DNA of 23,294 nucleotides from a virus (taxonomy: Duplodnaviria > Heunggongvirae > Uroviricota > Caudoviricetes): IMG/VR virus record IMGVR_UViG_2703718831_000001; one strand, written 5' to 3'. Below, piece by piece: positions 1 through 10,945 of the stretch. The notes beneath the pieces are model-generated. The model had not been told where the DNA came from. It saw only the letters and a list, made by a program, of their open reading frames with translations, and did not search any database. A program made the translations under genes and the position numbers. Every line of letters begins with the position of its first letter. The first letter of the stretch is position 1.

Positions 1-1026
1 TTAGCGATGCCAGTTGAGGTTATGAAGTGGATTTTTGGTAACGGCATCTTCCAGATGATCCGGTGCAAAATGGGCATAAATCATGGTCATTTTAATATCA
101 GCGTGTCCTAAAATATCCCTCAATACCAAAATGTTTCCGCCGTTCATCATAAAGTGGCTGGCGAAAGTGTGGCGCAGAACGTGGGTACATTGACCTTCAG
201 GTAGTTCAATTCCAGCTCGTTTTACCGCACGCTCAAAAGCCTTTCGGCATGGTGTGAATAACTTTCCTCTGTTTTTGGGTAATTCTTCATACAGTTCCTG
301 AGAAATAGGAACAGTTCGGTTTTTCTTTCCTTTTGTTTTGGTATAGGTAATTCGATACTTTGATATCTGGTTACCTTGCAGGTTTTCGGCTTCGCTCCAT
401 CTTGCCCCGGTAGCCAGGCAAATCTTGGCAATCATTAGCAGACTGGGACTTTGAGATTCAGCACATGCGTCAAGCAGGCGTTTGATTTCATCAGCAGCAA
501 GGAACGCCAGTTCACCTTCTGCAATTTTGAAAGTTGGCAGACCGGCGAGGGGGTTGGGTGCAGACCAATGTCCCAGCTTTTTCAGTGTGCCAAAAACTGA
601 GGATAGGTTACGCTGTTCAAGGTTCACCGTTCTGGGCTTAACCGGTGACATGAGCACGCCATCTTCGTTTTTGACCTCACCTTTTAATCTGGCTTCCCGG
701 TACTTTGTGAAATCACCTGCTGTCAATTCAGAAGCGATGGGATCGCCAAGTCCATTACAAATGATTTTTAACTTAGCCATTAATCGCTTAGGGTCAGCGA
801 GTGTCTGACCGTACAGGGAATACCATTGCTCAATCACTTCTGACAGTTGTCGCCGATCTTCCTTTTCTCCCAGCCAAGGTTTCTTGTTTACCTCATCCAT
901 GGTGAAATTCTCAAACGCAATGGCTTCGCCTTTCGTCGCAAATTGTTTGCGTACGCGTTTGCCATCTCTTCCGTTTGGGTAGCATTCACATAACCACTTT
1001 CCGTTCGGCTGTTTTCTGATGGTCAT
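1..1026 (-). CDS. int: Tyrosine site-specific integrase, P2/186 family
   Basis: 341-aa ORF. C-terminal catalytic region carries the tyrosine-recombinase residues (RWSE ... HVLRHTFAS ... LGHADIKMTMIYAH). It sits at the prophage edge directly downstream of the repressor gene, with 1 nt between cI stop and int start. Confidence 0.9.
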   Translation of the reverse strand: MTIRKQPNGKWLCECYPNGRDGKRVRKQFATKGEAIAFENFTMDEVNKKPWLGEKEDRRQLSEVIEQWYSLYGQTLADPKRLMAKLKIICNGLGDPIASELTAGDFTKYREARLKGEVKNEDGVLMSPVKPRTVNLEQRNLSSVFGTLKKLGHWSAPNPLAGLPTFKIAEGELAFLAADEIKRLLDACAESQSPSLLMIAKICLATGARWSEAENLQGNQISKYRITYTKTKGKKNRTVPISQELYEELPKNRGKLFTPCRKAFERAVKRAGIELPEGQCTHVLRHTFASHFMMNGGNILVLRDILGHADIKMTMIYAHFAPDHLEDAVTKNPLHNLNWHR

Positions 1027-1027
1027 A

Positions 1028-1660
1028 TCAAAGGCTCTTAATAATTTTCAGTGCGCGACCTATTACCTCAATGTCATCCAGTTCGCACTCAAACGATGAA
1101 TCATCCTGATGCACTACTAATCTGTTTCCCGGGAGTCGTGTCAATTTTACAATGCTTTTTATCCCGTCGATGTCCACTAACCACGTACCATTTACTGGTG
1201 GTGTTTGGTTGCGATCTATTAAATAAGAATCACCAGAAGTACTCACCAGCAGCAGGTTGCTTGAGTCTGAGGGGAGTATGCTGCTATCAATGATTGCTTT
1301 TCCAGCATCGACCAATAAACCACCGTTGAGAGTTGCCTTGTCAATTTCAGGAGATACAAGCTCAGAAAGAGGTTTAACCCTGCTGGAGTTCACAGAATTG
1401 ATATTTTTTTTAGGGTCAATTTTTGAACCTGGCTCGCCTTGTCCGGTGGTTAGCCACAGTAAAGAAACTCCTGTTTCCAAGGCGCACTGAATCACCCACT
1501 CTGCGGGAAAGCTATCTCTTAAGTATCTGTTTGCCATAGTGCTTTTTGATGCGCCTAAGTGATCGCAAAGTTGCTGTCTGGACTTGAAATCATAGGCTGC
1601 CATTAGTCTATGGATAGCCTCTCTTCCCCCTGTATTCTCGCCAGCTTTTACCTGTATCAT
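1028..1660 (-). CDS. cI: Phage immunity repressor, 186 CI-like
   Basis: 210-aa ORF with an N-terminal HTH-like region, transcribed divergently from the apl/cII operon and immediately upstream of int, as in 186-like lysogeny modules. Confidence 0.7.
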   Translation of the reverse strand: MIQVKAGENTGGREAIHRLMAAYDFKSRQQLCDHLGASKSTMANRYLRDSFPAEWVIQCALETGVSLLWLTTGQGEPGSKIDPKKNINSVNSSRVKPLSELVSPEIDKATLNGGLLVDAGKAIIDSSILPSDSSNLLLVSTSGDSYLIDRNQTPPVNGTWLVDIDGIKSIVKLTRLPGNRLVVHQDDSSFECELDDIEVIGRALKIIKSL

Positions 1661-5289: not shown

Positions 5290-7661
5290 TGAACTACAGC
5301 TATTCCTGGAATGCTGAGAAAAAAGCAATCAATCCTTACGTAGAGACAGAAGAGCAATCTTCAGTTTCTGCGCTTTCAAACCTGATCGCTCTGTACGCTG
5401 CCGATAACGAGCAGGAACAGCTGCGCCGCGAGGCACTGAGTGATCAGGTCTGGGAGCGTTATTTCTTTAATGAATCCCGTGATCCTGTCCAGCGCGAAAT
5501 GGAGCAGGATAAGCTCATTAGTCGGGCAAAGCTGGCGCATGAGCAGCAGCGTTTTAATCCAGATATGGTCATTCTGGCGGACGTCAATGCCCAGCCTTCC
5601 CATATCAGCAAGCCACTGATGCAACGTATTGAATACTTCAGCAGCCTGGGCAGGCCAAAGGCTTATTCCCGCTATTTGCGTGAGACGATTAAGCCATGTC
5701 TGGAACGGCTGGAGCATGTACGCGACTGTCAGCTATCCACTTCTTTTCGCTTTATGGCAAGCCATGAAGGGCTGGACGGCCTGCTGATCCTGCCTGAAAT
5801 GAGTCAGGATCAGGTGAAACGCCTGTCCACCCTGGTAGCTGCGCATATGAGCATGTGCCTTGATGCAGCTTGTGGCGATTTGTATGTCACCGATGACGTT
5901 AAGCCAGAAGAAATCCGCAAGACATGGGAAAAGGTGGCAGCGGAAACCCTGCGTCTGGATGTCATCCCGCCTGCGTTTGAGCAACTCCGCCGGAAAAGAA
6001 ACCGCCGTAAACCCGTGCCCTATGAACTCATTCCGGGTTCGCTGGCGCGTATGTTGTGCGCTGACTGGTGGTACCGGAAATTATGGAAGATGCGTTGCGA
6101 ATGGCGGGAAGAGCAGTTGCGTGCTGTCTGCCTGGTCAGCAAAAAAGCATCTCCCTATGTCAGCTATGAAGCCGTGATGCATAAACGTGAGCAGCGCCGT
6201 AAGTCGCTGGAGTTTTTTCGTTCTCATGAACTGGTGAACGAAGACGGCGACACGCTGGACATGGAGGATGTGGTAAACGCCAGCAGCAGCAACCCTGCGC
6301 ATCGCCGCAATGAGATGATGGCCTGTGTTAAAGGCCTGGAGCTTATCGCGGAAATGCGCGGTGACTGCGCCGTTTTCTACACCATCACCTGTCCGTCACG
6401 TTTCCATTCCACGCTAAATAATGGCAGGCCCAACCCAACTTGGACAAATGCGACGGTAAGACAAAGCAGTGATTATCTGGTCGGCATGTTTGCTGCATTT
6501 CGTAAGGCGATGCACAAAGCCGGATTGCGGTGGTATGGCGTGCGGGTGGCTGAGCCGCATCATGACGGTACAGTTCACTGGCACCTGTTGTGTTTTATGC
6601 GCAAAAAAGACCGCCGCGCCATCACTGCATTACTGCGTAAGTTTGCCATCCGTGAAGACCGTGAGGAACTGGGCAATAACACTGGGCCGCGCTTTAAGTC
6701 TGAGTTGATTAACCCGCGCAAAGGTACGCCAACAAGCTACATCGCGAAATACATCAGTAAGAACATTGACGGGCGTGGTCTGGCTGGCGAGATCAGCAAG
6801 GAAACGGGGAAATCCCTGCGTGATAATGCTGAATACGTTAATGCCTGGGCGTCTCTGCATCGTGTTCAGCAATTCCGCTTCTTTGGCATTCCGGGGCGTC
6901 AGGCTTACCGTGAACTGCGATTGCTGGCTGGTCAGGCGGCAAGGCAACAGGGGGACAAAAAAGCAGGTGCGCCGGTACTGGATAACCCGCGCCTTGATGC
7001 CATCCTGGCTGCTGCTGATGCTGGTTGTTTTGCCACCTACATCATGAAGCAGGGCGGCGTACTGGTTCCCCGCAAATATCACCTCATCAGAACCGCTTAT
7101 GAAATCAACGAAGAGCCGACCGCCTATGGCGATCACGGCATTCGTATTTATGGCATCTGGTCACCTATTGCAGAGGGCAAGATCTGCACTCATGCCGTGA
7201 AGTGGAAAATGGTTCGTAAGGCCGTTGATGTTCAGGAGGCGGCAGCCGACCAGGGCGCTTGCGCCCCTTGGACTCGTGGCAATAACTGTCCCCTTGCTGA
7301 AAATTTGTACCAACAAGGGAAAGACAAATCAGCTGATGGAGATACCAGAACGGATATCACCCGCATGGATGACAAGGAGTTGCACGATTACCTGCACAGT
7401 ATGAGCAAAAAAGAGCGCCGGGAACTGGCAGCAAGGTTACGCCTGGTGAAACCGAAACGGCGTAAAGACTACAAACAGCGAATTACAGACCATCAGCGAC
7501 TGCAGCTCGTGTATGAACTGAAGTCCAGGGGATTTGATGGCAGCGAGAAAGAGGTCGATTTACTCCTTCGCGGCGGCAGTATTCCGTCAGGAGCAGGCCT
7601 GCGTATCTTCTATCGGAACCAGCGTTTGCAGGAAGATGATAAGTGGCGAAACCTGTATTAA
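5289..7661 (+). CDS. A: Replication initiation protein A (rolling-circle nicking endonuclease), P2 gpA family
   Basis: 790-aa ORF from the ATG at 5289 (overlapping the upstream stop). Contains an HUH-type metal motif ([13 protein letters not shown]) and a catalytic-tyrosine motif (SYIAKYISK). Size and position match P2/186 gene A. Confidence 0.9.
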
Positions 7662-7753
7662 TTACGCGGGTTAACAATTCGTGCTCTTAATAATACCAGG
7701 CATATCAGGCTGATGAGCGTAAAAAAACGTTTTACATCAGTAAGATTATTATA

Positions 7754-7773
7754 TACTGTAAATATAAACAGTG
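7754..7773. promoter_or_regulatory. LexA operator (SOS box) TACTGT-N8-ACAGTG overlapping a sigma70-like promoter
   Basis: Perfect CTGT-N8-ACAG core (7756-7771) with an AT-rich spacer (AAATATAA). A TTTACA -35-like hexamer lies at 7731-7736, and the module's first ATG is about 40 bp downstream. Confidence 0.65.
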
Positions 7774-7813
7774 GTTATGTATACAGTATTGCTTTGGTGT
7801 CATAGGAGGAAAG

Positions 7814-8002
7814 ATGCAGGACTATTTTTTGGAGTCTTTGAAGCTCCAGCGCATTGATTTTTTTCTTAAGCTTGTAGCGGCTAGTGAGTGTAGTGATGAA
7901 GAGAAGGGGCTGGCTCTGCAGTGGGTTTCTGAACTGACAGATGAACTCATGGCAAAAATCAGAACCCACGAATACAACCGCTCAATGGATGTCATCAGCT
8001 GA
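7814..8002 (+). CDS. Small SOS-module protein; possible N-terminal part of a Tum-like antirepressor
   Basis: 62-aa ORF with AGGAGGA RBS, directly downstream of the LexA box. It is in a different frame from, and overlaps the open upstream extension of, the DinI-like ORF. Confidence 0.4.
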   Translation: MQDYFLESLKLQRIDFFLKLVAASECSDEEKGLALQWVSELTDELMAKIRTHEYNRSMDVIS

Positions 8003-8012
8003 GGTGACTTTT

Positions 8013-8246
8013 ATGCGCATTGAAATAATGATCGATAAAGAGCAGAAGATTAGCCAGTCTACACTGGACGCCCTTGAATCCGAGCTTTACCGCAATCTGC
8101 GCCCCCTGTATCCCAAAACGGTAATTCGTATCCGCAAAGGTAGCTCTAACGGTGTGGAACTTACCGGATTGCAACTGGACGAAGAAAGAAAACAAGTGAT
8201 GAAAATTATGCAGAAGGTGTGGGAAGACGACAGCTGGTTGCATTAA
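8013..8246 (+). CDS. DinI-family protein (C-terminal domain type of 186 Tum)
   Basis: 77-aa ORF starting MRIEIMIDKEQ and ending KIMQKVWEDDSWLH, matching the DinI pattern (MRIEV...ETWE..DW). GAGGTG RBS. Confidence 0.7.
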   Translation: MRIEIMIDKEQKISQSTLDALESELYRNLRPLYPKTVIRIRKGSSNGVELTGLQLDEERKQVMKIMQKVWEDDSWLH

Positions 8247-8457
8247 GAAACGTTGCTGGCGTCTGAACCTGCTTCTGGCGTCAGCAAGGTTGAACCGCGA
8301 GCCTTGAGAGGCGTTAACCATAAGTAAAAAGACAGTAATCACTTGATTATCTATCAGGGCGAGACCTATGCTGCACTTTTAGTTATAACTCATAATGTAT
8401 TGAAATTATTAGAATATATGTCATTCTTAAAATGTGTATGCTTATCAAGGAGCAAGA

Positions 8458-9330
8458 ATGAAACGTGGCATTGTAGCTAATCCTAATGAAATGAGTTTTC
8501 ATAGAAATAATAGTACGGTCTATCTTGGGGCAGGTTTAACTGAGCAGGATATTAATTATTTCTGCTTTTACTGGGATGATGTGGTTATTCTAGATAGTGA
8601 AAATATTCACTCGATTGTGCCTAAAGAAAAAGAATTATTAGATAATGGGGTATTACGTAGACCTATTATGAAACATGATGGTATGCTGAATATCCAAGAC
8701 TTTCCATTTTTATATACGGAATTTCAGTTGCAGACATTGGATGAATTCAGGAAGAACGAGCCTGCTACTTATTGGCACTTTCATCAAACAGGGGAGAATT
8801 TAATATATGATAAAGAACAGAAAACGGCCCTTCAGTTGAGATTGGAGTTGTTTAATGTTCTGAGAATTCCTGATAAAGATGCTCATATAGAAGATATATT
8901 ACGTTTTAAAGATGATTGTCAGGATGATCTTAATGCGTTACATGAGTACTTAGAAAAACTGTATACTGAAGTCCTTTATTCTAGAGACCCTAATCTAACG
9001 AGGGCTAAAAATTTTTCTTTATTACAAGAGGCTGTAGTTAATCTTGATAAAGCTATCGAAGGGAAATGGAGAAATCCTATCAGAATGGGAGTCAAAGTTA
9101 ATCCAGAAGTAGATGGTGGGCAGGTTATGGAATTTTTAAAACCGTTGTACCATGCTGCTATTGCTGGTGATTCAGGCGGTATTATTCCCGGTATGGTTAC
9201 AGCCTTGGCAACCGCAATTCCAAGTTTTATAAAATTCCAACCAGAATGGGTGGGCTTTAGAGATAAGGGGCCTAAAGAATTAGCTTATCTTACCAAAGCA
9301 ACGCATAAGGGGTTGATTAAGAGAGCTTAA
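8458..9330 (+). CDS. Hypothetical 291-aa cargo protein in the gene A-cos accessory locus; contains a GDSGG motif
   Basis: ORF from the ATG at 8458 with AGGAG RBS, in a markedly AT-rich segment unlike the phage backbone. No recognisable family. C-terminal AIAGDSGGIIPG resembles a serine-hydrolase nucleophile motif. Confidence 0.6.
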   Translation: MKRGIVANPNEMSFHRNNSTVYLGAGLTEQDINYFCFYWDDVVILDSENIHSIVPKEKELLDNGVLRRPIMKHDGMLNIQDFPFLYTEFQLQTLDEFRKNEPATYWHFHQTGENLIYDKEQKTALQLRLELFNVLRIPDKDAHIEDILRFKDDCQDDLNALHEYLEKLYTEVLYSRDPNLTRAKNFSLLQEAVVNLDKAIEGKWRNPIRMGVKVNPEVDGGQVMEFLKPLYHAAIAGDSGGIIPGMVTALATAIPSFIKFQPEWVGFRDKGPKELAYLTKATHKGLIKRA

Positions 9331-9737: not shown

Positions 9738-10310
9738 GTGCAGGTAGTTCATATAGGGTTTCATAACTGCCTTAATCGTGGCAGTTATGAGACGATACGG
9801 CAAAGCGTACCCTTTTTAAGCCGTTCAGGCCCTAAACAATGGTTAACTCAAGGTTACTATTTTTGGACTGATGACCCATACTGGGCTCATCAGTGGAACG
9901 AAGGTCATGATACGGTGATTAGTGAATTTTCTATCACCTTTGATTCAAAGGATGAGTTGCTTGATTTGGTTGGAAATGCTCGAGATATCAGGCAATTTGA
10001 AGCTATGCGTCAGAAAGTTGCCAGTACTTTGACTCGAATGAGCGCCTTGCATATCACAGTCAATCAGGTCATTAGCTTTTTTAGAGAGCTCGAGCAATCT
10101 GATGATTTTAAAGGCGTATTTCCATATGCTGCTGTTAAGGCACAAGATAGTACGAAAGTGTCTAATCTTATAAGACTTAACTTTGTAGATGAGCGCCCAG
10201 AACAGATGGTTTCATTTACCCGTCAGCAAATGTGTGTTTATGAACATGCTCGAGGTAAGATAGAGTTTAGAAGATTTATCTTTCCAGAGCATTTCTGTGA
10301 GAAGGATTAA
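9738..10310 (+). CDS. Hypothetical protein, first gene of a three-gene cargo operon
   Basis: 190-aa ORF with GTG start and AGAGAGGA RBS 5 nt upstream. AT-rich. No recognisable motif. Confidence 0.55.
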   Translation: MQVVHIGFHNCLNRGSYETIRQSVPFLSRSGPKQWLTQGYYFWTDDPYWAHQWNEGHDTVISEFSITFDSKDELLDLVGNARDIRQFEAMRQKVASTLTRMSALHITVNQVISFFRELEQSDDFKGVFPYAAVKAQDSTKVSNLIRLNFVDERPEQMVSFTRQQMCVYEHARGKIEFRRFIFPEHFCEKD

Positions 10311-10319
10311 GGAGGAAAA

Positions 10320-10553
10320 ATGCTTTCCTTTGAACAAAGAATGGCCTTACTTAACAAGGCATTACAGCAGTATACTCCTGAGTCGCTTTATGAAAAATTA
10401 AGCTCGTACCCGGCTTATGGACCAACAATCGTAAGCTACGAGCTTCCAAGCTCTGAAGGGTTCATTACATTGAGACCACGTCTGATCAATCATGCTGCTG
10501 AACGTTCAGTGGATTTCTTTTCAGATGATACTGAATTGGATTTAGCGGCCTGA
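10320..10553 (+). CDS. Hypothetical small protein, second gene of the cargo operon
   Basis: 77-aa ORF with a strong GGAGG RBS, 9 nt after the upstream stop. Confidence 0.5.
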   Translation: MLSFEQRMALLNKALQQYTPESLYEKLSSYPAYGPTIVSYELPSSEGFITLRPRLINHAAERSVDFFSDDTELDLAA

Positions 10554-10555
10554 CG

Positions 10556-10945
10556 ATGAAACTAAGATTACGGGATAATACTGTTACTCGACTGTTGTTT
10601 GTCGATGCTGAAGGGCGCAAAATCGAATCTGGTTTTGCGCTTCGATTTAAGCCCATTTTTGATGAAAATCCGCGCGAATTTTCAGTATTGTTTGATTTTT
10701 ATTACATTACTGAGAATGATCGGGCATTACGAGTCGAGTTTCAAAGTGTTTTTGAAACAGATAAAGACATTGACGATTCTTTTAAAGAATCGAAGTTTCC
10801 AGTTGTTAATGCTCCTGCGATATCGTTCCCGTTTTTACGTTCGTTTGTTGCCAATTTTTTGATGACAAGTGGGTATACACCGATCCTGCTTCCTAGCTTT
10901 AACTTTACAACTTTTGAACAGGATATCGGGAAGTTTCCTAACTGA
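10556..10945 (+). CDS. Hypothetical protein, third gene of the cargo operon
   Basis: 129-aa ORF whose ATG lies 2 nt after the upstream stop (TGACGATG), followed directly by a terminator. Confidence 0.5.
   Translation: MKLRLRDNTVTRLLFVDAEGRKIESGFALRFKPIFDENPREFSVLFDFYYITENDRALRVEFQSVFETDKDIDDSFKESKFPVVNAPAISFPFLRSFVANFLMTSGYTPILLPSFNFTTFEQDIGKFPN

What the first reader, a model, noticed from the sequence alone, without database searches (positions are those of the whole stretch)
7754..8246. LexA-controlled tum-like antirepressor that appears split by a frameshift
A perfect CTGT-N8-ACAG LexA box precedes a 62-aa ORF and then a DinI-like ORF in a different frame. Between 7941 and 8002 both frames are open, and removing one A from the A5 run at about 7953-7957 fuses them into a single protein of about 143 aa, close to the 146 aa I recall for 186 Tum, whose C-terminus is DinI-like. 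Either the antirepressor is inactivated (or mis-sequenced at a homopolymer), or the phage natively makes a separate DinI-like protein from its own RBS (GAGGTG is present). This bears on whether the prophage is SOS-inducible.
Basis: partly seen in the sequence, partly recalled or inferred. Interest (0 to 1): 0.55.

Follow-up and report, generated by a model that had tools for sequence, protein, structure and literature searches.

The report
Natural two-gene SOS antirepressor operon
This is not a broken gene: it is the normal, already described two-gene version (tumA-like antirepressor plus separate DinI-like gene, behind a LexA box) of the SOS induction module that phage 186 carries as one fused gene, and it is shared with Fels-2, PsP3 and about a fifth of complete E. 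coli genomes.

Summary
The window has a single strong LexA box (7754-7773), a 62-aa ORF (7814-8002) and a complete 77-aa DinI-like ORF (8013-8246) in another frame, and deleting one A of the A5 run (7954-7958) would give a 143-aa fusion.

The frameshift reading is wrong.
- The same two-ORF layout occurs in Fels-2, SopEPhi, PsP3 (annotated tumA/tumB), a plaque-isolated Yersinia phage and 1,083 of 5,426 complete E. coli genomes.
- The gap between the two genes is 3, 10, 11, 12 or 13 nt in different relatives, so their relative frame is not conserved. The A-run is not conserved either.
- The tail of ORF1 is under purifying selection in its own frame (pN/pS 0.11-0.21) but not in the fusion frame (about 1-3.5).

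ORF1 is a true homologue of the antirepressor (N-terminal) half of 186 Tum (HHalign P 2.6e-10). The promoter copies 186 p95, with the -10 inside the LexA box, and the prophage has a 186-type CI.

The literature already says that Fels-2 and PSP3 have tum split in two, with the upstream gene carrying the antirepressor activity. The finding is ordinary and already known, and the prophage is most likely SOS-inducible.

The parts
7731..7736 (+). -35 hexamer TTTACA of the SOS promoter (p95 equivalent)
   Evidence: Invariant in the 7-phage alignment. It lies 17 nt upstream of the -10 TACTGT. The annotated 186 p95 promoter has TTCACA, 18 nt, TACTGT. A strict sigma-70 scan did not call it, because the -10 matches only 3 of 6.
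7754..7773 (+). LexA box TACTGTAAATATAAACAGTG; its first six bases (7754-7759) serve as the -10 hexamer
   Evidence: It is the only match in the window, with 0 expected from shuffles. Its position relative to the -10 is the same as the LexA site of 186 p95. It is conserved in Fels-2, SopEPhi, SEN8, MLG42 and ST437phi4.1, and equivalent boxes precede the PsP3, ESSI-2 and ESSI2_ev129 tumA-like genes.
7780..7788 (+). Conserved extra half-site-like element TATACAGTA between the LexA box and the RBS (role unknown)
   Evidence: ATACAGT is invariant in the 7-phage alignment. It is not a full LexA box within 3 mismatches.
7804..7809 (+). Shine-Dalgarno AGGAGG of ORF1
   Evidence: Invariant in the alignment of 7 phages. 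It lies 4 nt before the ATG at 7814.
7814..8002 (+). ORF1, a 62-aa tumA-type antirepressor gene (homologue of the N-terminal domain of 186 Tum)
   Evidence: HHalign of the ORF1 family against the 186 Tum-N family gives probability 96.8%, P 2.6e-10 and score 49.3, against a shuffled null of 9.9 +/- 2.3 with maximum 22.1. PHROG cross-hits link phrog_698, phrog_8554 and phrog_1993. Whole-gene pN/pS is 0.12-0.15. 86 cluster representatives exist and none has the ORF1 domain followed by a C-terminal DinI domain.
7954..7958 (+). A5 run (the proposed frameshift site); an ordinary Ala-Lys-Ile coding stretch (GCA AAA ATC)
   Evidence: It is not conserved: A4 in SopEPhi and ST13phi12.1, A6 in MLG42. The residues downstream of it are invariant in the ORF1 frame.
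8001..8006 (+). Shine-Dalgarno GAGGTG of the DinI-like gene, overlapping the ORF1 stop codon (TGA 8000-8002)
   Evidence: Read directly from the sequence. Relatives have G-rich SD-like sequences in a gap of 3-13 nt.
8013..8246 (+). 77-aa DinI-like gene (tumB type)
   Evidence: Pfam DinI, E 6.6e-23. Full-length alignment with E. coli DinI 1GHH. 41% identical to 186 Tum residues 71-145, starting exactly at the internal GTG start of the 76-aa 186 product. Matches phrog_189 profile positions 71-148 of 151.
8253..8287 (+). GC-rich stem-loop after the operon (possible partial terminator or RNA end; no U-tract)
   Evidence: RNA fold of 8240-8330 gives -29.2 kcal/mol, z = -2.27. The terminator scan did not call it. 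186 has the partial terminator t95a at the equivalent place.
1028..1660 (-). 186-type CI immunity repressor, the inferred target of ORF1
   Evidence: Pfam Phage_CI_repr (4.8e-31) and Phage_CI_C (4.3e-28). 33% identical to 186 CI over 92% of its length.

Best explanation
The region is an intact SOS induction operon of a 186/Fels-2-like (P2-family) prophage, in its natural two-gene form.

1. In an undamaged cell, LexA sits on the box at 7754-7773. The box contains the -10 hexamer, so the promoter is shut.
2. DNA damage leads to LexA self-cleavage, and the operon is transcribed.
3. The first gene (ORF1, 62 aa, tumA type) is the counterpart of the N-terminal half of 186 Tum. It most likely binds the prophage's 186-type CI repressor and keeps it off its operators. 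That de-represses the lytic promoter and induces the prophage.
4. The second gene is a complete DinI-like protein (tumB type), translated from its own start 10 nt after the ORF1 stop. It probably modulates RecA filament activity and hence the SOS signal.

The fact that one base deletion would fuse the two ORFs is a coincidence of this subclade, not a lesion.

Shown here: the anatomy, the homology, the conservation and the selection pattern. Inferred from 186, PSP3 and Fels-2 work: LexA binding, CI binding and the DinI role.
For: Layout in relatives
- The same layout is present in Fels-2 (ORF1 61/62 identical, DinI protein identical, LexA box identical) and in SopEPhi, SEN8, Cartapus and 813R9. 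It is also in the plaque-isolated Yersinia phage MLG42 and in Klebsiella phages.
- PsP3 annotates the pair as tumA ('similar to 5' end 186 tum; UV induction of prophage') and tumB.
- 1,083 of 5,426 complete E. coli genomes carry the locus. In all 12 rows listed the features under the match are separate 'DinI-like/DinI family protein' and 'hypothetical protein' entries. One record is 100% identical to the window.

No conserved frame relationship
- The gap between the genes is 10, 11, 12, 13 or 3 nt, so the relative frame is +1, +2 or 0 in different phages.
- pN/pS of ORF1 codons 43-62 is 0.11-0.21 in the ORF1 frame and 0.97-3.5 in the fusion frame.
- K48, I49, H52 and E53 are invariant.

Homology
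- ORF1 is homologous to the Tum N-terminal domain: HHalign P 2.6e-10 over residues 5-44 in both, far above the shuffled null.
- 186 Tum-N hits phrog_698, the ORF1 family, at 5.9e-6.

Regulation and context
- The promoter and LexA architecture equals the annotated 186 p95.
- A 186-type CI, a CII and a Cox/Apl-like excisionase are present.
- ESSI-2-type phages have a tumA-like gene alone behind a LexA box, with no dinI.

Literature
- Fels-2 and PSP3 have tum split in two by a stop codon, and the upstream PSP3 gene encodes the antirepressor activity (PMC3121763).
- 186 induction proceeds by LexA de-repression of p95 and Tum inhibition of CI (PMC7708051).
Against: - No experiment on this exact element exists.
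- The antirepressor assignment for the upstream gene rests on a personal communication about PSP3, relayed through two papers. PsP3 TumA belongs to a different subfamily (phrog_1993), which ORF1 hits only at E 0.002.
- The window's CI is only 58% identical to the Fels-2 CI, so the ORF1-CI pairing here is inferred.
- Pairwise BLASTP of ORF1 against 186 Tum or PsP3 TumA finds nothing. Homology appears only at profile level.
- The -10 hexamer is weak (3 of 6), and the generic promoter scan found no promoter.
Confidence: 0.88

Rival explanations
1. The antirepressor gene is a pseudogene. An ancestral 186-like fused tum suffered a one-base insertion in the A-run (or the A-run was mis-sequenced), so the prophage has lost SOS inducibility.
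For: Deleting one A at 7954-7958 gives a 143-aa ORF that is colinear with the 146-aa 186 Tum at 32% identity. Homopolymer-type variants do occur in some public assemblies, e.g. P0248, which reads the third frame after the A-run.
Against: - The same sequence is present in functional phages and in over a thousand complete genomes.
- The relative frame of the two genes varies among relatives.
- The ORF1 tail after the A-run is invariant and under purifying selection in its own frame only.
- The DinI-like ORF has its own SD and a Met1 that aligns with Met1 of E. coli DinI.
- No fused ORF1-type/DinI protein appears among the 120 listed closest homologues or the 86 cluster representatives.
- A truly broken copy looks different, as in the 500465-1 record.
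Confidence: 0.02
2. Programmed +1 ribosomal frameshifting (or transcriptional slippage) on GCA-AAA-ATC makes a fused Tum-like protein in addition to the two separate products.
For: tRNA-Lys could re-pair perfectly after a +1 slip on A-AAA-A, and the DinI frame is open for 65 nt of overlap with ORF1. 186 itself makes several nested products from tum.
Against: - The A-run length varies (A4, A5, A6). The recoding event needed would differ between relatives: +1, -1 or stop read-through.
- The fusion frame shows no purifying selection (pN/pS about 1-3.5).
- A5 is too short for efficient transcriptional slippage. This point rests on general knowledge, not on a test here.
- The A-site codon ATC is not a rare codon. 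This too is general knowledge, not tested here.
- No stimulatory structure stands out: the junction hairpin has z = -0.85.
Confidence: 0.03
3. The DinI-like protein, not ORF1, is the effector of induction. ORF1 is an unrelated small protein or a leader ORF that only provides translational coupling.
For: ORF1 has no Pfam or NCBIfam family and no solved relative. Its PHROG families are all labelled 'unknown function'. The short intergenic gap is compatible with coupling.
Against: - ORF1 is homologous to the non-DinI half of Tum.
- It is under strong purifying selection over its whole length.
- ESSI-2-type phages keep only the tumA-like gene behind the LexA box.
- In PSP3 the upstream gene is reported to carry the antirepressor activity.
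- In Gifsy prophages, dinI deletions did not affect induction (PMC3121763).
Confidence: 0.06

Closest known systems
Fels-2 STM2728 / STM2726.1 (Salmonella LT2 prophage SOS operon)
   Same: Essentially the same element. ORF1 is 61/62 identical with 3 nt differences in 189. The DinI-like protein is identical, the LexA box is identical, and the 10-nt gap and frame relation are the same. Fels-2 is the prophage named in the title of Bunny et al. 2002 as the cause of the lethal lexA-null phenotype (reference list seen).
   Different: The immunity repressor differs: the window's CI is only 58% identical to the Fels-2 CI. The cargo downstream of the operon also differs.
PsP3 tumA / tumB
   Same: A LexA box, then a small gene of about 60 aa, then a separate 77-aa DinI-like gene, all after replication gene A. 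The pair is explicitly annotated as the two halves of 186 tum. The upstream gene is reported to be the antirepressor.
   Different: TumA belongs to another subfamily (phrog_1993). ORF1 hits it only at E 0.002, and HHalign gives P 0.0019. In PsP3 the two genes are in the same frame, 3 nt apart. The PsP3 CI is 286 aa with a duplicated N-terminal domain.
Coliphage 186 Tum (p95 SOS operon)
   Same: The same promoter and LexA-box design and the same position after gene A. The N-terminal domain is homologous to ORF1, and the C-terminal DinI-like domain is 41% identical to the second ORF. 186 also makes a separate 76-aa DinI-like product, from an internal GTG that aligns with Met1 of the window's DinI gene.
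   Different: In 186 the two modules are one 146-aa polypeptide. Here they are two genes in different frames. 186 has orf97 downstream, and the window does not.
Gifsy-1/-2/-3 dinI-gfoA/gftA LexA-controlled operons
   Same: A LexA-repressed prophage operon that combines a DinI homologue with a small antirepressor, which inactivates a non-cleavable repressor by binding it (PMC3121763).
   Different: The gene order is reversed, with dinI first. The phages are lambdoid, and the repressor and antirepressor families differ. Homology of GfoA/GftA to ORF1 was not tested here.

Membership tests
186 Tum-type LexA-controlled antirepressor module (split tumA/tumB form) | The small protein is homologous to the N-terminal (non-DinI) domain of 186 Tum | tested here: met
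   HHalign gives probability 96.8%, P 2.6e-10, over residues 5-44 in both. The score is 49.3 against a column-shuffled null maximum of 22.1. 186 Tum-N hits phrog_698 at 5.9e-6. Pairwise BLASTP was negative.
186 Tum-type LexA-controlled antirepressor module (split tumA/tumB form) | A LexA box overlaps the -10 of the promoter immediately upstream | tested here: met
   The box at 7754-7773 is unique in the window, with 0 expected by chance. Its geometry matches the annotated 186 p95 promoter. LexA binding itself was not tested.
186 Tum-type LexA-controlled antirepressor module (split tumA/tumB form) | Located after replication gene A of a P2/186-family phage that has a 186-type CI repressor | tested here: met
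   The gene A homologue ends at 7661. CI has both Pfam CI domains, a CP76-type CII is present, and a portal gene lies downstream.
186 Tum-type LexA-controlled antirepressor module (split tumA/tumB form) | A separate, complete DinI-like gene directly downstream, as a conserved arrangement rather than a lesion | tested here: met
   The two-gene layout is conserved across phages with gaps of 3-13 nt and changing frames. Selection acts in the ORF1 frame only. 1,083 E. coli genomes carry the locus.
186 Tum-type LexA-controlled antirepressor module (split tumA/tumB form) | The protein binds CI and prevents operator binding, and is required for SOS induction | not testable with these tools
   Known for 186 Tum (Shearwin et al. 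1998, cited) and reported for the upstream PSP3 gene. Needs genetics and biochemistry on this element.
186 Tum sensu stricto (single fused 146-aa polypeptide) | The antirepressor and DinI-like domains are in one reading frame | tested here: not met
   A stop at 8000-8002 ends ORF1, and the DinI-like ORF is in the +1 frame. No fused relative of the ORF1 type was found.
DinI family (PF06183) | A full-length match to the DinI profile above the curated threshold | tested here: met
   81.3 bits against a cut-off of 24.2, covering profile positions 1-63 of 63. Residues 1-75 align with residues 1-77 of E. coli DinI 1GHH.
DinI family (PF06183) | Orthology with chromosomal E. coli DinI (NCBIfam equivalog NF007893) | tested here: not met
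   42.7 bits against a cut-off of 111. It is a phage paralogue, as is the 186 Tum C-terminus (44.5 bits).
Programmed ribosomal frameshift / frameshift pseudogene | The slippery site and the frame relationship are conserved, with selection on the trans-frame product | tested here: not met
   The A-run varies (A4, A5, A6). The relative frame varies (0, +1, +2). pN/pS in the fusion frame is about 1-3.5.

The most novel reading that the evidence does not exclude
An almost invariant TumA-type antirepressor (98-100% identical to the window's ORF1) is paired in different phages with CI repressors only 38-58% identical to the window's CI. These CIs keep one nearly invariant N-terminal patch, RDxFPA(D/E)W(V/I)IxC...LETG. 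The patch differs in 186 and PsP3, which use other Tum-N subtypes.

The unexcluded novel reading is that this patch is the docking surface. If so, one TumA could cross-induce several heteroimmune P2-family prophages in a polylysogen. That would be the kind of antirepressor crosstalk shown for Gifsy phages. The DinI module would be a freely gained, lost or fused accessory (absent in the ESSI-2 type, separate here, fused in 186).
Probability: 0.3. Interest if true: 0.4.

Novelty: already known. Interest (0 to 1): 0.1.

Why it matters
It settles a practical annotation question. The 62-aa 'hypothetical protein' next to a DinI gene in Fels-2-like prophages is the SOS antirepressor gene, not a frameshift remnant. 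In the E. coli genomes examined it is labelled only 'hypothetical protein', and about a fifth of complete E. coli genomes carry the locus. These prophages should therefore be expected to respond to DNA damage. That matters for predicting prophage induction, for example by antibiotics that trigger SOS, and the mobilisation of their cargo, here a PD-T4-9 defence system. It adds nothing new in principle, because the split tum arrangement has been described since 2002-2011.

Tried and rejected
- Pairwise BLASTP of ORF1 against 186 Tum, PsP3 TumA against 186 Tum, and PsP3 TumA against ORF1 all found nothing. These proteins are too short and too diverged, so profiles were needed.
- A first HHalign with low-diversity alignments gave only P 3e-4. 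It was superseded by a broader profile built from the exhaustive representative search.
- Pfam, NCBIfam and PDB sequence searches with ORF1 gave nothing.
- The strict sigma-70 scan found no promoter. The promoter was assigned by alignment with the annotated 186 p95 instead.
- The one terminator-like hit, at 7991-8008, sits on the ORF1 stop and the DinI SD. It is not significant (z = -0.85) and is not conserved in relatives, so I do not treat it as a terminator or a coupling device.
- Bunny et al. 2002 could not be read. It is cited only through Lemire et al. 2011.
- A literature search for 'tumA/tumB/PSP3' returned no paper.
- I considered a second overlapping LexA box at 7769-7788. By my own count from the sequence it matches the consensus at 15 of 20 positions, and its left half is AGTG rather than CTGT. 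It was not found within 3 mismatches.
- Structure prediction of ORF1 was not run, because it could not change the verdict.

Full report
**1. What is in the sequence**

- The LexA box TACTGTAAATATAAACAGTG lies at 7754-7773. It is the only CTGT-N8-ACAG in the window. It is also the only match to the 20-mer consensus within three mismatches, with none in 100 shuffles.
- ORF1 runs from 7814 to 8002 (62 aa) behind AGGAGG (7804-7809).
- The next ORF ends at 8246. Read from the ATG at 8013, 6 nt after GAGGTG (8001-8006), it is a 77-aa protein. It matches Pfam DinI over the whole profile (81.3 bits, cut-off 24.2).
- That protein also aligns with E. coli DinI (PDB 1GHH) from Met1 to the C-terminus.
- The DinI frame is open upstream to 7938, so it overlaps ORF1 by 65 nt.

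**2. Context**

The window is part of a P2/186-family prophage.
- Integrase: 1-1026, minus strand.
- A 186-type CI with both Pfam CI domains: 1028-1660, minus strand.
- A Cox/Apl-like excisionase: 1780-2028.
- A CP76-type CII: 2061-2570.
- The gene A replicase, ending at 7661.
- Downstream, the portal and terminase genes.

One complete E. coli genome (strain ZH177, from a pig) matches 7740-8260 at 100%.

**3. Comparison with phage 186**

186 Tum is 146 aa. The record annotates nested products, including a 76-aa GTG-initiated 'truncated Tum'.
- The window's DinI-like protein is 41% identical to Tum residues 71-145. Its Met1 aligns exactly with that internal GTG start.
- ORF1 alone gives no BLASTP hit to Tum. 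In the artificial fusion, however, its first 45 residues or so align colinearly with the Tum N-terminus.
- A broad ORF1-family profile was built from an exhaustive search of 1.84 billion cluster representatives. With it, HHalign against the 186 Tum-N family gives probability 96.8%, P 2.6e-10 and score 49.3.
- 200 column-shuffled controls give 9.9 +/- 2.3 with a maximum of 22.1. The aligned residues are 5-44 in both proteins.
- PHROGs agrees independently. 186 Tum-N hits the ORF1 family phrog_698 at 5.9e-6. ORF1 hits the PsP3 TumA family phrog_1993 at 0.002. The window's DinI-like protein matches positions 71-148 of the 151-column fused-Tum profile phrog_189.

So ORF1 is the counterpart of the antirepressor half of Tum.

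**4. Is the split a lesion?**

No. Four lines of evidence agree.
- (a) The same two genes, annotated separately, follow gene A in many phages. These include Fels-2, SopEPhi, SEN8, RE2010, Cartapus, 813R9 and Yersinia phage MLG42 (isolated on Y. pestis from a dog swab), plus about 45 Klebsiella phage records.
- PsP3 names them tumA ('similar to 5' end 186 tum; UV induction of prophage') and tumB ('similar to dinI and 3' end of 186 tum').
- 1,083 of 5,426 complete E. coli genomes carry the locus. In all 12 rows listed, a 'hypothetical protein' and a DinI-like protein are annotated separately. That rules out a one-off homopolymer error.
- (b) The gap between the ORF1 stop and the DinI start varies. 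It is 10 nt in the window and Fels-2, 11 nt in SopEPhi, SEN8 and ST437phi4.1, and 12 nt in MLG42. It is 13 nt in ST13phi12.1 and 3 nt in PsP3. The relative frame is therefore +1, +2 or 0. The A-run is A4, A5 or A6.
- (c) In comparisons with relatives about 16-18% diverged in nucleotides, codons 43-62 of ORF1 have pN/pS of 0.11-0.21 in the ORF1 frame. In the fusion frame the values are 0.97-3.5. K48, I49, H52 and E53, all after the A-run, are invariant in a 31-sequence alignment.
- (d) No protein with the ORF1 domain followed by a C-terminal DinI domain was found among the 120 listed closest homologues or the 86 cluster representatives. The longer forms are gene-caller over-extensions through the promoter or assembly artefacts.

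Even close relatives of the 186 Tum N-terminus are mostly standalone proteins of 63-78 aa, several named 'Tum protein'.

**5. Regulation**

The upstream region aligns with relatives and with the annotated 186 p95 promoter.
- There is an invariant -35 TTTACA (7731-7736), a 17-nt spacer and the -10 TACTGT, which forms the first six bases of the LexA box. 186 has TTCACA, 18 nt, TACTGT with the LexA site starting at the -10.
- A GC-rich stem-loop without a U-tract follows the operon at 8253-8287. 186 has the partial terminator t95a at the equivalent place.
- ESSI-2 and ESSI2_ev129 have a tumA-like gene (41-49% identical) directly behind a LexA box, and no dinI gene at all.
- The conserved core is therefore LexA box plus tumA. 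DinI is an accessory that is absent, separate or fused in different lineages.

**6. Literature**

- Lemire et al. 2011 (PMC3121763) state that Tum looks like an antirepressor fused to DinI. [quoted passage not shown] 2002).
[quoted passage not shown] - Murchland et al. [quoted passage not shown]
- Bunny et al. 2002 could not be read here. Its title attributes the lethal lexA-null phenotype in Salmonella to the Fels-2 prophage.

**7. Mechanism proposed**

Shown: the anatomy, the homology, the conservation and the selection pattern.

Inferred:
1. LexA occupies 7754-7773 and blocks the promoter.
2. After DNA damage the operon is transcribed.
3. ORF1 binds the 186-type CI and removes it from its operators, which switches the prophage to lytic development.
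4. The DinI-like protein modulates RecA filament activity.

The prophage is therefore most likely SOS-inducible. Confidence that this is the native split tumA/tumB operon is about 0.9. Confidence that ORF1 is the CI antirepressor is somewhat lower, because that rests on homology and on relayed PSP3 data.

**8. Rivals**

- Frameshift pseudogene or sequencing error: about 0.02.
- Programmed +1 frameshifting: about 0.03.
- DinI as the real effector with ORF1 as a leader: about 0.06.

All three are contradicted by the conservation and selection data above. The decisive experiments are listed separately.

**9. Side observation**

Phages whose ORF1 is 98-100% identical to the window's carry CI repressors of very different sequence. 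Identity to the window's CI is as follows:

| Phage | CI identity to window CI |
|---|---|
| Kp4845-2 | 97.6% |
| Fels-2 | 58% |
| Cartapus | 52% |
| 813R9 | 43% |
| 4LV2017 | 40% |
| ST340phi10.2 | 38% |

- These CIs keep an almost invariant N-terminal patch, SKSTxAxRxxRDxFPA(E/D)W(V/I)IQCxLETG, while their C-terminal domains fall to 28-53% identity.
- The patch also holds in ESSI2_ev129 and ST13phi12.1. It differs in 186 and PsP3, which use other Tum-N subtypes.
- This fits a conserved docking surface and possible cross-induction between heteroimmune prophages. The sample is small and shared ancestry confounds it, so it is only a lead.

**10. Verdict**

The element is an ordinary, already described member of a known system.

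Noticed in passing
window 9738-10945 (+): ORFs 9738-10310, 10320-10553, 10556-10945: A complete three-gene PD-T4-9 anti-phage defence system (A 2.8e-96, B 5.1e-39, C 1.1e-60 against PADLOC). It sits as cargo between the SOS operon and the portal gene, which is the variable slot of P2-family phages. Relatives carry other cargo there, e.g. a TIR-domain protein in 500465-1 and an ATP-binding protein in ST13phi12.1.
   Followed up: partly
window 8434-9330 (+): A gene of about 290 aa with a DUF6236 match (1e-20) and no PADLOC hit, in an AT-rich stretch just after the SOS operon. Its function is unknown, and it may be further cargo or a defence gene.
   Followed up: partly
window 1028-1660 (-) versus L015-L023: A near-identical ORF1 (98-100%) is paired in other phages with CI repressors 38-58% identical to the window's CI. 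These CIs share a nearly invariant N-terminal patch, RDxFPA(D/E)W(V/I)IxC...LETG, that differs in 186 and PsP3. It may be the antirepressor docking surface and a route to cross-induction.
   Followed up: partly
window 7780-7788: A conserved TATACAGTA element lies 6 nt after the LexA box. ATACAGT is invariant in 7 phages, although the flanking bases vary. It looks like an extra LexA right half-site, and its role is unknown.
   Followed up: no
L007 1457-1713 and L008 1460-1680: ESSI2_ev129 and Cronobacter phage ESSI-2 carry a tumA-like gene directly behind a LexA box with no dinI gene anywhere in the locus. In the ESSI-2 record the gene is not annotated at all.
   Followed up: yes
L010 (Escherichia phage 500465-1) 1501-2031: This record shows what a damaged copy looks like. 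ORF1 has a short out-of-frame stretch (EERGWLCSGVSEL), and the DinI gene has lost a base after codon 4 (ATGCGCATTGAATAATG). The replication gene is also truncated next to IS elements.
   Followed up: partly
L021 719-1579 (PsP3 cI): The PsP3 CI is 286 aa and contains two tandem copies of the N-terminal helix-turn-helix domain, unlike the CIs of about 190-210 aa in 186, Fels-2 and the window.
   Followed up: no
proteins P0001-P0120 and P0241-P0321 (homologues of window 7814-8002): Many database entries for this gene are over-extended at the N-terminus (84-109 aa), because gene callers read back through the promoter and LexA box. A few entries from low-quality assemblies carry indels at the A-run (e.g. 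P0248). Length alone is therefore a poor guide to this family in databases.
   Followed up: yes
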